This document shows positions 794 through 2,152 of a stretch of DNA of 6,030 nt, piece by piece. Source of the DNA: a virus (Duplodnaviria > Heunggongvirae > Uroviricota > Caudoviricetes); the IMG/VR virus record IMGVR_UViG_3300029253_000209, one strand, 5' to 3'. Each line of letters begins with the position of its first letter. The stretch's first letter is position 1. The notes under the pieces were generated by a model. It searched no databases. It was not told the origin of the DNA and saw only the letters and a list, made by a program, of their open reading frames with translations. Both the position numbers and the translations under genes were made by a program.

Positions 794-1591
794 TTACTCT
801 CTGGAAGCTTTTCTTATCTCTCTTGGTGTTATATTAAAACGATTATGAAATCTTTCAGTAAAACGAGAAGGACACTTATAACCATTTTCTCTGGCAATCT
901 CGCTTATAGGTTTTACCGTCGTTTGTATAGCAGACAACGCATTATTTAACCTCACATCGTCCAGTATACTTTGGAAACTTACCCCCTCGCTTGCTAGACG
1001 GCGATGTAATGTAGAAACAGAAATGTAGAGATATCGAGCAACCTTGTTTGCTGTCCATTTTGTGCCGGGTTCGGATAGCAGCAGGTTATAACAACGACTT
1101 ATCAATGATTGTTTACTATATGATAAAAGTAAATGATTAACATGATTCACTCCTAACGAAAGTAGAACGCCCATTGCTAAGTGCTCCTGAATTTTAGTTG
1201 AGAAGCCTCGGGAAACAGATGTTTTTAGTTGCTCCCAACAATATATTAACTCAGGATTCTGAGGTAAAAAGAAACTTGTTTTGTTACGTATTTGATCAGT
1301 TACCGTATAAAGTTTTTGGAAACTCTCAATTAAATCAATGGGTAAGTAAAGCATTTCTGCAAGATAAAGCCCTGCTTCAGGATAATTCTCAATATAAAAT
1401 TCATAACCACAAGGAAATAATATTATTTGATTATTATCAACAGTTAAAGTATGCGTCTCCCAATTGATAACTTTCTTTCCCTGACGGATACGACACAAAG
1501 CTGGCATAATAGGCTTAACCCTATGAATCTCATGATGTTTATGCATCCGTATTTCTTCGATCTTTAAGTTAGTCTTACCTCTTGCCAGCAT
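794..1591 (-). CDS. ybcM: AraC/XylS-family transcriptional regulator, 265 aa (DLP12 YbcM-like)
   Basis: C-terminal helix-turn-helix region typical of AraC family ([17 protein letters not shown] ... [30 protein letters not shown]). ATG at 1589-1591 lies 10 nt downstream of the ybcL-like stop, consistent with an operon. Strongly AT-rich. Confidence 0.85.
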
Positions 1592-1600
1592 ACTCTCACC

Positions 1601-2152
1601 CTACTTTATCTCATAAACTGGTGTTATCTCAGCGGTTGCGATTTTATTAGCATTAAGCATATAACCAACTAACGCTCCGCTGGAGTTAGAATCTACAGGA
1701 ATCTTTTCAGTTTTTAGAGCCCATACTTTAAACTGGTAATGATGTGGTTTATCTCCTTTAGGAGGACATGCGCCACCAAACCCAGCATAGCCAAAATCAT
1801 TTCGGCCTTGAACAGCACCAGTCGGCAGTTTTGTTCCATCACGTCTCCCTGCATCAACGGGCAAATATGTTACTGTTGCTGGAATATTAACAACAGTCCA
1901 ATGCCACCAACCACTGCCTGTAGGTGCATCTGGATCATATACAGTTACGGCAAAGCTTTTGGTACCTTCAGGAACACCAGACCAGGTTAATGAGGGCGAT
2001 GTATTACCACCTTCACACCCAAATCCAGAAAAGACATGAGACGTTGTAAGTTGCTCTCCTGTTTTTATTTCATTACTAGTGACCTGAAATGCTGCAGCCT
2101 GCGCAGAAAATGTTATGAATGCCAATACAGTTGAAACGATAAGTGTTTTCAT
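1601..2152 (-). CDS. ybcL: Periplasmic PEBP/RKIP-family protein (YbhB/YbcL family), 183 aa with N-terminal signal peptide
   Basis: Signal-peptide-like N-terminus MKTLIVSTVLAFITFSAQA; PEBP motifs YDPDAP, GWWHWTVVNIP and GDKPHHYQFKVWAL. AGAGG Shine-Dalgarno upstream of the ATG at 2150-2152. Confidence 0.9.
   Translation of the reverse strand: MKTLIVSTVLAFITFSAQAAAFQVTSNEIKTGEQLTTSHVFSGFGCEGGNTSPSLTWSGVPEGTKSFAVTVYDPDAPTGSGWWHWTVVNIPATVTYLPVDAGRRDGTKLPTGAVQGRNDFGYAGFGGACPPKGDKPHHYQFKVWALKTEKIPVDSNSSGALVGYMLNANKIATAEITPVYEIK

What the first reader, a model, noticed from the sequence alone, without database searches (positions are those of the whole stretch)
794..2152. Coupled PEBP-family periplasmic protein and AraC-family regulator as prophage cargo
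The secreted PEBP homolog and the AraC-type regulator are separated by only 10 nt and are probably co-transcribed from the long upstream region containing the 13-bp dyad. Bacterial PEBP homologs have been linked to host-interaction phenotypes, but the function of this pair and why a regulator is encoded downstream of its probable target are unclear.
Basis: partly seen in the sequence, partly recalled or inferred. Interest (0 to 1): 0.45.

Follow-up and report, generated by a model that had tools for sequence, protein, structure and literature searches.

The report
Known ybcL-ybcM operon of prophage DLP12
This is the already described ybcL-ybcM operon of the defective E. coli prophage DLP12: a periplasmic PEBP protein followed by an AraC-type regulator that binds its own promoter.

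Summary
The region 794-2152 (minus strand) holds ybcL, a periplasmic PEBP protein identical to K-12 YbcL and PDB 1FUX. It also holds ybcM, an AraC/XylS regulator that differs from K-12 by one residue. The two genes are 9 nt apart, not 10. They sit between ren and ninB of prophage DLP12. ChIP-exo (Gao 2021) places the second-strongest YbcM peak 68-101 nt upstream of ybcL, at window 2220-2253, and calls it autoregulation of the ybcLM operon. Deleting ybcM sensitises cells to H2O2 and nalidixic acid.

I add three points:
- The PEBP-then-AraC pair is a conserved two-gene cassette in 10 loci from 9 enterobacterial genera, each with different neighbours.
- Its promoter has two direct repeats (TGA-N5-TTTGCAyGAT) exactly 21 nt apart, then a conserved -10 (TAnAAT) and no usable -35. 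This is the layout of an activator-dependent AraC-type promoter.
- The 13-bp dyad (2369-2418) lies in a 268-nt spacer found only in the DLP12 arrangement. It is absent from every other copy of the cassette, so it is not part of the conserved ybcLM control region.

Verdict: already known, low interest.

The parts
1601..2152 (-). ybcL: periplasmic PEBP/RKIP-family protein, 183 aa. The signal peptide is residues 1-19 (nt 2152-2096, ...SAQA|A).
   Evidence: Pfam PF01161 at E=3e-42. NCBIfam NF007330 at 400 bits. Matches PDB 1FUX over residues 20-183 at all but one position. Identical in DNA and protein to K-12 ybcL. The signal peptide is conserved in all 10 orthologues.
1592..1600 (-). 9-nt ybcL-ybcM junction, TAG-GGTGAGAGT-ATG, with a GGTGA Shine-Dalgarno-like element and no room for a terminator.
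   Evidence: The same 9-nt gap occurs in 7 of 10 loci from other genera.
794..1591 (-). ybcM: AraC/XylS-family regulator, 265 aa, with an N-terminal cupin-like beta domain and a C-terminal double helix-turn-helix.
   Evidence: HTH_18 and HTH_AraC above their cut-offs. One residue differs from K-12 (I28 against L28). AlphaFold model with mean pLDDT 79. The best full-length fold matches are ToxT, Rns and CsvR, at E=7e-14 and weaker.
2226..2245 (-). Box 1, the distal YbcM repeat: GTGATTGCTTTTGCATGAAC (consensus TGA-N5-TTTGCAyGAT).
   Evidence: One mismatch to the consensus. Conserved in 10 loci from 9 genera, exactly 21 nt from box 2. Lies inside the ChIP-exo site.
2206..2225 (-). Box 2, the proximal YbcM repeat: ATTGCGCCTTTATGCATAAT. 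It would overlap the -35 position of the conserved promoter.
   Evidence: Similar strings lie at the YbcM ChIP-exo peaks of ucpA (GCTGCTTTATGCATCAT) and yhiS (AATGCGCCTTTTTGCGCAT).
2220..2253 (-). Published YbcM ChIP-exo footprint (MG1655 version-2 coordinates 570015-570048, signal/noise 357), 68-101 nt upstream of the ybcL ATG.
   Evidence: Supplement of PMC8464067. Coordinates converted through NC_000913.3 with a +777 offset.
2181..2186 (-). Conserved -10 hexamer TAAAAT (TAnAAT in all 10 loci). The -35 position scores only 0-3 of 6. The predicted transcription start is about 20-22 nt before the ATG.
   Evidence: majority conservation 0.94 against 0.42-0.46 in the neighbouring spacers. The transcription start is not mapped.
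2158..2163 (-). ybcL Shine-Dalgarno sequence AAGAGG.
   Evidence: Read from the sequence.
2247..2275 (-). GTGGCA-17-TACAAT, the 'constitutive' sigma-70 promoter assigned to ybcL by genomic SELEX. Its -10 overlaps the ChIP-exo site, and it is not conserved outside Escherichia.
   Evidence: Shimada 2014, PMC3946193. Found by the consensus scan. Falls in gapped or divergent columns in other genera.
2308..2575 (.). 268-nt spacer found only in the DLP12-type arrangement, between the ybcK segment and the conserved ybcLM cassette. It holds the dyad and a 48-codon ORF (2395-2541, minus strand) with no family match.
   Evidence: Absent from the CFT073 island, from E. albertii and from phage 4A7. Present once each in 675 E. 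coli genomes. No PHROG or PADLOC hit.
2369..2418 (.). 13-bp perfect dyad AAAATACGTGACA / TGTCACGTATTTT with a 24-nt spacer. Its function is unknown. It may be a weak hairpin or insulator between ybcK and ybcLM.
   Evidence: RNA hairpin of -18.9 kcal/mol, z=-3.6. Chance frequency about 1-5%. Not called a terminator by the scan. Not conserved with the cassette.
701..729 (-). G+C-rich 10-bp hairpin, GTCACCGGAG...CTCCGGTGAC, 65 nt downstream of the ybcM stop codon. It is a candidate operon terminator but has a poor T-tract.
   Evidence: -19.7 kcal/mol for the 51-nt stretch. Lies in the phage backbone shared with phage 4A7.

Best explanation
The region 794-2152 is the ybcLM operon of the defective lambdoid prophage DLP12. 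It is a self-contained two-gene cargo cassette (a 'moron') inserted between ren and ninB. The first gene, ybcL, encodes a Sec-exported periplasmic PEBP/RKIP-fold protein. The second, ybcM, starts 9 nt later and encodes an AraC/XylS regulator with a ToxT/Rns-like architecture.

YbcM binds its own promoter at two tandem direct repeats (TGA-N5-TTTGCAyGAT, 21 nt apart; window 2206-2245). The proximal repeat abuts or overlaps the -35 position of a promoter that has a conserved -10 (TAAAAT, 2181-2186) and no usable -35. I infer that YbcM activates transcription there, giving positive autoregulation of both genes. A signal sensed by the N-terminal domain would presumably modulate this. YbcM also binds a few host promoters (ubiT, ucpA, lrhA).

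Shown by others: YbcM binding at this site, stress phenotypes of ybcM mutants, periplasmic location of YbcL, and the effect of the UPEC YbcL variant on neutrophil migration. Shown here: conservation of the pair, the repeats, their spacing and the -10 in nine genera; and exclusion of the dyad from the conserved unit. Inferred: the sign of regulation, the transcription start, and co-transcription as the main route to ybcM expression.
For: Identity of the genes.

Prophage cargo:
- The window equals DLP12 of strain EC931.
- A low-G+C block lies in a 51% G+C backbone.
- The complete 44.6-kb phage PhiR34_1 carries emrE-ylcJ-ybcK-ybcL-ybcM between ren and ybcN.
- Phage 4A7 has an esterase cassette in the same slot.
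- 40 IMG/VR viral contigs encode YbcM, 38 of them at 100% identity over the best-matching segment.

[quoted passage not shown] I map it to window 2220-2253.

Conserved pairing: a 182-185-aa PEBP gene lies directly upstream on the same strand in 10 of 10 loci: DLP12, the E. coli yedK-fliE island, E. albertii, Salmonella, Cedecea, Lelliottia, Yersinia ruckeri, Brenneria, a Budviciaceae genome and Plesiomonas. Every genus has different flanking genes.

Conserved promoter anatomy: the box1-box2 spacing is 21 nt and the box2-to-(-10) spacing is 29 nt in all 10 loci, with no indels, while leader length varies from 34 to 40 nt. Majority conservation is 0.74 (box 1), 0.71 (box 2) and 0.94 (-10), against 0.42-0.46 in the adjacent spacers. 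The -35 position scores 0-3 of 6.

Regulator architecture: Foldseek gives ToxT, Rns and CsvR as the best full-length matches, at E=7e-14 and weaker.

Phenotypes: a ybcM deletion survives H2O2 8-fold less well. A ybcM::Tn5 mutant is hyper-killed by nalidixic acid and is complemented. ybcLM is up-regulated in paraquat-evolved strains.
Against: No transcription start site is mapped, so the conserved -10 is a prediction. The called ChIP-exo interval (2220-2253) is shifted about 8 nt upstream of box 1 plus box 2. It also covers the -10 of the SELEX-assigned promoter GTGGCA-17-TACAAT, which fits repression equally well. A table in the Gao et al. supplement lists the predicted role of YbcM as 'Repressor' (file 9). 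Shimada 2014 also lists an 'internal promoter' between ybcL and ybcM, so ybcM may not depend only on read-through. No expression data for ybcL with and without ybcM were found in the library. The fold-search TM-scores are only about 0.45 because the domain orientations differ.
Confidence: 0.75

Rival explanations
1. YbcM is an autorepressor. It sits on the -10 and start region of the constitutive sigma-70 promoter GTGGCA-17-TACAAT (2247-2275) and shuts off ybcLM. Induction occurs when a signal releases it.
For: The ChIP-exo interval 2220-2253 includes TACAAT (2247-2252). The Gao et al. supplement gives the predicted role as 'Repressor'. Genomic SELEX with RNA polymerase alone found a promoter here, which suggests no activator is needed in vitro.
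Against: The SELEX hexamers were assigned by sequence search within a low-resolution peak. Neither hexamer is conserved outside Escherichia. By contrast, the repeats, their 21-nt spacing, the fixed 29-nt distance to TAnAAT and the missing -35 are kept in nine genera. That layout is the one used by AraC/XylS activators; this last comparison rests on my own knowledge.
Confidence: 0.2
2. The two genes are adjacent but functionally separate. ybcM is made mainly from an internal promoter inside ybcL and acts on host genes for stress, motility and biofilm. ybcL is an unrelated passenger.
For: Shimada 2014 lists an 'Internal Promoter' between ybcL and ybcM. YbcM has strong peaks at ubiT (signal/noise 470), ucpA (81) and lrhA (24). 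A conference report says YbcM lowers motility genes and raises biofilm genes.
Against: The second-strongest YbcM peak in the genome is at the ybcL promoter. The PEBP-AraC adjacency, the short gap and the operator are conserved in 10 of 10 loci while all neighbours change. That conservation is hard to explain without a functional tie. An internal promoter would not exclude co-transcription.
Confidence: 0.1
3. The long 464-nt upstream region with the 13-bp dyad is the operator or promoter from which the pair is controlled.
For: The dyad is real and occurs by chance in only about 1-5% of simulations. It folds as a hairpin with z=-3.6. A promoter-like GTGACA-17-AATAAT overlaps one arm, but on the plus strand, pointing away from ybcL.
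Against: The dyad lies 217-266 nt upstream of the ATG, outside the ChIP-exo site. It also lies outside the sequence shared with the island, E. albertii and all other genera. The 268-nt piece that carries it exists only in the DLP12-type arrangement. Its resemblance to a YbcM box (3 mismatches) is at chance level.
Confidence: 0.04

Closest known systems
E. coli K-12 ybcL-ybcM (b0545-b0546), DLP12 prophage
   Same: ybcL is identical in DNA. ybcM differs at one nucleotide, giving I28 in place of L28. The 464-nt upstream region differs at 3 positions. The neighbours are the same: emrE, ylcJ, ybcK, ylcH and ybcN.
   Different: This copy comes from a strain like EC931. There emrE is frameshifted, exo is cut by IS1 and ren is intact, whereas K-12 has IS3 inserted in renD.
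emrE-ybcL-ybcM island between yedK and fliE (CFT073 and about 48% of complete E. coli genomes)
   Same: Same cassette, same 9-nt gap, same repeats and -10. Identity is 89-92% at the DNA level. A porin gene of the nmpC type and ylcH are attached as in DLP12.
   Different: The island has no ybcK, no ylcJ, no 268-nt spacer and no dyad. The phage genes from ybcN to most of quuD are deleted, so it looks like a decayed DLP12-like prophage. Its YbcL differs from the window protein at 6 residues, including V100T. I take V100T to be the 'V78T' that separates the UPEC neutrophil-suppressing variant from the K-12 variant (the numbering is from my memory of Lau 2012).
ToxT / Rns / CsvR group of AraC-family regulators
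   Same: Length of about 265 aa. An N-terminal cupin-like beta sandwich is followed by two helix-turn-helix motifs. These are the best full-length structural matches. They act on AT-rich, horizontally acquired genes; this last point rests on my own knowledge.
   Different: Sequence identity is only 14-17%, and sequence searches align only the DNA-binding half. No fatty-acid pocket residues were tested. No NCBIfam equivalog reaches its cut-off.
YbhB / PEBP / RKIP family
   Same: PF01161 and TIGR00481 hits. The DPDAP and PHHY signature motifs are present. The chromosomal paralogue YbhB is the next-best PDB match at E=9e-50.
   Different: YbcL has a signal peptide and is periplasmic. Unlike most family members, which rarely sit in conserved gene pairs (PMC8793217), this subfamily keeps a dedicated AraC partner.
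Activator-dependent promoters of AraC, XylS and RhaS (proximal site overlapping -35)
   Same: Two direct repeats two helical turns (21 bp) apart. The proximal one reaches about -32. The -35 is poor and the -10 is good. The comparison with those promoters rests on my own knowledge.
   Different: The transcription start and the sign of regulation are not determined here. No upstream looping site is evident.
Other lambdoid prophage morons that encode AraC regulators (AppY of DLP12; PsrB and PatE of O157 prophages)
   Same: A prophage-borne AraC/XylS regulator wired into host stress networks (PMC10057817).
   Different: YbcM is co-encoded with its own target gene, and the pair also lives outside prophages.

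Membership tests
PEBP/RKIP family (Pfam PF01161; YbhB/YbcL subfamily TIGR00481) | Profile match above the curated cut-off | tested here: met
   PF01161 at 144.5 bits against 24. TIGR00481 at 189.5 against 57.75, and the YbcL equivalog NF007330 at 400.3 against 277.
PEBP/RKIP family (Pfam PF01161; YbhB/YbcL subfamily TIGR00481) | PEBP fold | tested here: met
   Residues 20-183 match the crystal-structure chain 1FUX_A at all but one position.
PEBP/RKIP family (Pfam PF01161; YbhB/YbcL subfamily TIGR00481) | Conserved pocket motifs (DPDxP; His-containing motif) | tested here: met
   D73-P74-D75-A76-P77 and P136-H137 with Y139 are invariant in 10 orthologues; H138 is kept in 9 of 10.
Sec-exported periplasmic protein | N-terminal signal peptide with an AxA cleavage site | tested here: met
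   MKTLIVSTVLAFITFSAQA|A read from the sequence. The crystallised chain starts at residue 20. The peptide is conserved in 10 of 10 orthologues. Periplasmic location is reported in PMC4810123. No signal-peptide predictor was available.
AraC/XylS transcription factor family | C-terminal double helix-turn-helix domain | tested here: met
   HTH_18 at 61.5 bits against 33.6, and HTH_AraC at 29.1 against 26.6. The model shows seven helices in residues 163-264. GadX, Rns and ToxT DNA-binding domains match.
AraC/XylS transcription factor family | Sequence-specific DNA binding in vivo | not testable with these tools
   Published ChIP-exo reports 12 sites, with the ybcL promoter at signal/noise 357.
ToxT/Rns-type regulators (ligand-sensing cupin N-domain) | N-terminal cupin-like domain with the same overall architecture | tested here: met
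   Eight beta strands in residues 10-82. Full-length Foldseek hits to ToxT, Rns and CsvR at E=7e-14 and weaker, but TM only about 0.45. The ExsA_N profile scores 20.5 bits, below its cut-off of 27.
ToxT/Rns-type regulators (ligand-sensing cupin N-domain) | Fatty-acid binding pocket and ligand control | not tested
   No residue-level superposition or ligand data. Sequence profiles align only the C-terminal half.
Operon (co-transcribed unit) | Same strand, short gap, no terminator between the genes, conserved adjacency | tested here: met
   9-nt gap. No terminator-like site between the genes. Adjacent in 10 of 10 loci.
Operon (co-transcribed unit) | A single transcript spanning both genes | not testable with these tools
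   Called 'operon ybcLM' in PMC8464067 and in bioRxiv 749887. Shimada 2014 also lists an internal promoter.
Lambdoid prophage moron (cargo) | Sits between conserved phage genes, has foreign base composition and its own promoter, and is dispensable or replaceable in related phages | tested here: met
   Lies between ren and ninB. G+C is 0.33-0.46 against about 0.51. Has its own conserved promoter. Replaced by an esterase cassette in phage 4A7 and present in the complete phage PhiR34_1.
Class II (overlapping -35) AraC-type activation | Tandem direct repeats about 21 bp apart, with the proximal one overlapping -35 of a promoter that has a weak -35 | tested here: inconclusive
   The spacing and the weak -35 are conserved in 10 loci. 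However, the transcription start is not mapped and the sign of regulation is unknown.
Anti-phage defence system | Match to a known defence protein model | tested here: not met
   No PADLOC hit for YbcL, YbcM, YbcK, EmrE, YlcJ or the 48-aa ORF.

The most novel reading that the evidence does not exclude
The periplasmic YbcL-type PEBP and its YbcM-type regulator may form a conserved, mobile, self-activating sensor-effector cassette of Enterobacterales. In this reading the two proteins are tied through one small molecule. For example, a lipid or fatty-acid-like ligand would be handled by the periplasmic PEBP protein and sensed by the ToxT/Rns-like pocket of YbcM. This would give bacterial PEBP proteins their first defined physiological circuit. 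[quoted passage not shown]
Probability: 0.12. Interest if true: 0.55.

Novelty: already known. Interest (0 to 1): 0.18.

Why it matters
In itself it matters little. The genes, the operon, the prophage and the autoregulatory binding are all in the literature and in the standard K-12 annotation.

Three by-products are modestly useful:
- A precise, testable promoter and operator model for ybcLM: box 1, box 2 and the -10, with fixed spacing across nine genera.
- Evidence that the pair is a portable two-gene cassette, not a DLP12 peculiarity.
- Evidence that the neutrophil-suppressing UPEC allele belongs to the yedK-fliE island lineage, whereas the DLP12 allele seen here is the K-12, non-suppressing variant.

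Bacterial PEBP proteins still lack a biochemical function, and a dedicated conserved regulator offers a handle for finding the inducing signal.

Tried and rejected
- Dyad as YbcM operator: rejected. It lies outside the ChIP-exo site and outside the conserved cassette, and its box-like match is at chance level.
- Dyad as a canonical intrinsic terminator: not called by the scan. The stem is AU-rich with a 24-nt loop, although the hairpin is more stable than shuffled sequence.
- Dyad or spacer as a known RNA: no Rfam match at E up to 1 anywhere in the window.
- Dyad-bearing spacer as a repeated mobile element: rejected, because each genome holds a single copy and only in the DLP12 context.
- Cargo as an anti-phage defence system: no PADLOC hits.
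- ChIP-exo coordinates read as NC_000913.3: rejected, because the site would then fall inside ybcK, 845 nt upstream. With the version-2 to version-3 offset (+777 here, +1978 at ucpA) the sites land upstream of ybcL and in the ucpA-murR spacer, as the paper describes.
- First version of the box consensus, with N6: it failed to hit the window's own boxes. Corrected to N5.
- Shared motif among the ChIP-exo peaks: box-2-like strings were found at ucpA and yhiS, a weaker one at ubiT, and nothing convincing at lrhA. Four sequences are too few for statistics.
- The genome contigs pattern scan found only 6 loci. The wider set came from the protein search plus contig look-ups.
- Lau et al. 2012 (PMC3497442) is not held in the library. 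The V78T detail therefore rests on my memory of the abstract and on the review PMC4810123.
- Sequence profiles could not align the YbcM N-terminal domain to Rns or ToxT, so the pocket residues remain unexamined.
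Full report
WHAT IS THERE

The window is the DLP12 defective lambdoid prophage of E. coli, read in reverse orientation. It matches strain EC931 (a urine isolate) at 99.6% over all 6030 nt, including an IS1 end and a frameshifted emrE.

On the minus strand the gene order is:
- ybcN/ninB, 124-579
- ylcH
- ybcM, 794-1591
- ybcL, 1601-2152
- ybcK, a large serine recombinase, 2617-4147, interrupted by a run of N
- ylcJ
- emrE
- ren, 4814-5116
- a 3' fragment of gene P

On the plus strand there is a 3' fragment of bet and a 5' fragment of exo, which is cut by IS1.

G+C is about 0.51 in the phage backbone and 0.30-0.45 from about 750 to 4800. The block from emrE to ybcM is therefore foreign cargo between ren and ninB.

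ybcL is a PEBP-family protein:
- PF01161 at E=3e-42.
- NCBIfam YbcL equivalog at 400 bits against a cut-off of 277.
- Residues 20-183 match PDB 1FUX at all but one position.
- It has a classical signal peptide.

ybcM is an AraC/XylS regulator (HTH_18 at 61.5 bits).

ybcL is identical to K-12 in DNA and protein, and YbcM differs by one residue. The intergenic gap is 9 nt (GGTGAGAGT), not 10.

The 13-bp perfect dyad is at 2369-2381 and 2406-2418. An inverted repeat that long arose in 5 of 400 and 3 of 60 Markov simulations.

WHAT IS ALREADY PUBLISHED

- Serre et al. 2001 solved the YbcL structure (cited).
- Lau et al. 2012 and 2014 showed that the UPEC YbcL variant is released from the periplasm by lysis and suppresses neutrophil transepithelial migration. 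The K-12 and commensal variant cannot, because of one residue (review PMC4810123).
- Han et al. 2010 found ybcM::Tn5 hyper-killed by nalidixic acid, mitomycin C and peroxide, and complemented it.
- Shimada et al. 2014 assigned a constitutive promoter GTGGCA-17-TACAAT and an H-NS site upstream of ybcL, plus an internal promoter before ybcM.
- Gao et al. 2021 ran ChIP-exo on YbcM and found 12 sites. The two dominant peaks are ubiT (signal/noise 470) and ybcL (357). [quoted passage not shown]
- A 2022 conference report says YbcM lowers motility genes and raises biofilm genes.

MAPPING THE PUBLISHED SITE

The ChIP-exo coordinates (570015-570048) are in the older MG1655 sequence version. With the +777 offset to NC_000913.3 they fall 68-101 nt upstream of the ybcL ATG. 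This equals window 2220-2253, GTACAATTGTGATTGCTTTTGCATGAACATTGCG. The same conversion puts the ucpA site in the ucpA-murR spacer, which supports the offset.

THE PAIR IS A PORTABLE CASSETTE

Two allele classes exist in complete E. coli genomes:
- 667 genomes carry the DLP12 allele at 99% identity or more.
- 2590 genomes carry an allele about 92% identical.

The second class lies between yedK and fliE, with the order nmpC-like porin, ylcH-ybcM-ybcL, emrE, and no ybcK.

Compared with DLP12, that island has two clean deletions. One runs from inside quuD to the ybcN start codon. The other covers window 2308-4405 (ylcJ, ybcK and 268 nt). The island keeps 99 nt of the quuD 3' end, so it looks like a decayed DLP12-like prophage.

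Three further points on carriers:
- The complete phage PhiR34_1 carries the full DLP12 arrangement.
- Phage 4A7 keeps emrE-ylcJ-ybcK but has an esterase gene in place of ybcLM.
- Forty IMG/VR contigs encode YbcM.

Outside Escherichia, YbcM orthologues of 45-62% identity occur in Salmonella, Cedecea, Lelliottia, Yersinia ruckeri, Brenneria, a Budviciaceae genome and Plesiomonas. In every locus examined, a PEBP gene of 182-185 codons with a signal peptide lies immediately upstream on the same strand. The gap is 9 nt in 7 of 10 loci. The surrounding genes differ in each genus and are mostly ordinary chromosomal genes.

A review of the PEBP family states that these genes are rarely in conserved neighbourhoods. 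This pairing is therefore a small addition to what is known.

THE CONSERVED CONTROL REGION

I aligned about 150 nt upstream of the ten PEBP genes. This shows two direct repeats with consensus TGA-N5-TTTGCAyGAT, exactly 21 nt apart. A TAnAAT hexamer follows at a fixed 29-nt offset. There are no indels in any locus, although the leader varies from 34 to 40 nt.

Majority conservation is 0.74 and 0.71 in the boxes and 0.94 in the hexamer, against 0.42-0.46 in the adjoining DNA. The -35 position matches TTGACA at only 0-3 of 6 positions.

In the window, on the minus strand, the elements are:
- box 1, 2245-2226
- box 2, 2225-2206
- the -10 hexamer, 2186-2181
- the Shine-Dalgarno sequence, 2163-2158

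If TAAAAT is the -10, box 2 spans about -52 to -32 and box 1 about -73 to -53. The ChIP-exo interval (-79 to -46 on that scale) covers box 1 and half of box 2. Box-2-like strings occur at the ucpA and yhiS peaks.

Tandem 21-bp-spaced repeats, with the proximal one over a defective -35, are the arrangement used by AraC, XylS and RhaS to activate transcription (my own knowledge). I therefore infer positive autoregulation, with about 60% confidence for the sign.

The rival is repression of the SELEX promoter, whose TACAAT lies inside the ChIP-exo interval. Gao et al. listed 'Repressor' as the predicted role. Those hexamers are not conserved beyond Escherichia. No mapped transcription start or ybcM-dependent ybcL expression data were found.

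THE REGULATOR

An AlphaFold model built from 26 orthologues (mean pLDDT 79) shows an eight-stranded N-terminal beta domain and a seven-helix C-terminal domain. The best full-length matches in the PDB are ToxT, Rns and CsvR, at E=7e-14 and weaker. The TM-score is about 0.45, lowered by differences in domain orientation. The domain-only matches that follow are GadX, AraC, ExsA, BgaR and RhaR.

Sequence profiles align only the DNA-binding half. No NCBIfam equivalog passes its cut-off. YbcM is thus a distinct AraC subfamily whose ligand, if any, is unknown.

THE DYAD

Sequence shared with the island and with E. albertii stops at window 2307-2309. Sequence shared with phage 4A7 resumes at 2576. The 268 nt in between, which hold the dyad, occur once per genome in 675 genomes, all of the DLP12 type.

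The dyad folds as an AU-rich hairpin of -18.9 kcal/mol, z=-3.6. The scan does not call it a terminator. It has no Rfam match. It resembles a YbcM box only at chance level.

It is not part of the conserved ybcLM control region. It may insulate ybcLM from ybcK transcription or bind some protein, but nothing here shows that.

WHICH YbcL VARIANT

The window protein equals K-12 YbcL. By the published definition this is the variant that does not suppress neutrophil migration. The CFT073 island allele differs at six residues, and the only valine-to-threonine change is V100T. I take this to be the published 'V78T' in mature-protein numbering. The primary paper was not available.

VERDICT

The finding is a correct reading of a well-annotated K-12 locus. 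Its open questions were mostly settled in 2010-2021, and its one specific structural suggestion, the dyad, does not hold.

What remains open:
- the sign of autoregulation and the transcription start
- the signal sensed by YbcM
- the biochemical role of YbcL

The novelty class is 'already known', and interest is low.

Noticed in passing
window 4413-4746 (minus strand); extra T in the T-run at about 4510-4515: emrE is a pseudogene here. One extra T (five T become six) shifts the frame after about residue 78, and there is also an A61G substitution relative to K-12. RefSeq marks it 'frameshifted' in strain EC931.
   Followed up: yes
window 5957-6030: The end of an IS1 element cuts the phage exo gene (the 5' fragment is at 5673-5956). 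In EC931 the rest of exo continues on the other side of IS1A.
   Followed up: partly
window about 5430-5440: A 3' fragment of replication gene P (minus strand) abuts a 3' fragment of bet (plus strand). The whole immunity and early region (gam through O) is therefore deleted, and the prophage cannot be induced.
   Followed up: partly
window 3530-3539 and 4308-4322: The two runs of N are masks whose lengths differ from the real sequence. The window is 15 nt longer than its match in EC931, and ybcK appears split into two frames only because of the first run.
   Followed up: partly
window 2617-4405; L016 (phage 4A7) 3666-7173: emrE-ylcJ-ybcK travel together in several intact lambdoid phages. Downstream of ybcK is a variable slot holding either ybcLM or an esterase gene. 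ybcK is a full-length large serine recombinase (resolvase, recombinase and zinc-ribbon domains) with no known role in these phages, which use a tyrosine integrase (intD).
   Followed up: partly
L003 (CFT073) 7088-10936: The yedK-fliE island, present in about 48% of complete E. coli genomes, is a collapsed DLP12-like prophage. It holds a porin gene, 99 nt of the quuD 3' end, ylcH, ybcM, ybcL and emrE, joined by two clean deletions. The UPEC YbcL allele is encoded there, not in DLP12.
   Followed up: yes
L007 (E. albertii) 3403-6798: In E. albertii, emrE-ybcL-ybcM sit next to a tyrosine integrase gene. A strong terminator-like hairpin (GCCCGCA...TGTGGGC followed by T6) lies between emrE and the ybcL promoter. 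In CFT073 only 168 nt with no evident terminator separate them, so emrE read-through into ybcLM is possible there.
   Followed up: no
window 2376-2404 (plus strand): The best sigma-70-like match in the region (GTGACA-17-AATAAT, 10 of 12) uses one dyad arm as its -35 and points away from ybcL, toward the 3' end of ybcK. It could drive an antisense transcript.
   Followed up: no
L009 (Shigella flexneri) about 5500-6800: The Shigella flexneri copy of the cassette is decayed. The PEBP reading frame is broken into fragments, and no intact ybcM ORF remains.
   Followed up: no
MG1655 lrhA, ubiT and ucpA promoters (L011, L012, L014): The published YbcM peaks include lrhA, a regulator of flhDC. This fits the conference report that YbcM lowers motility. 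The island copy of ybcLM lies directly beside the fliE and fliF flagellar operons.
   Followed up: no
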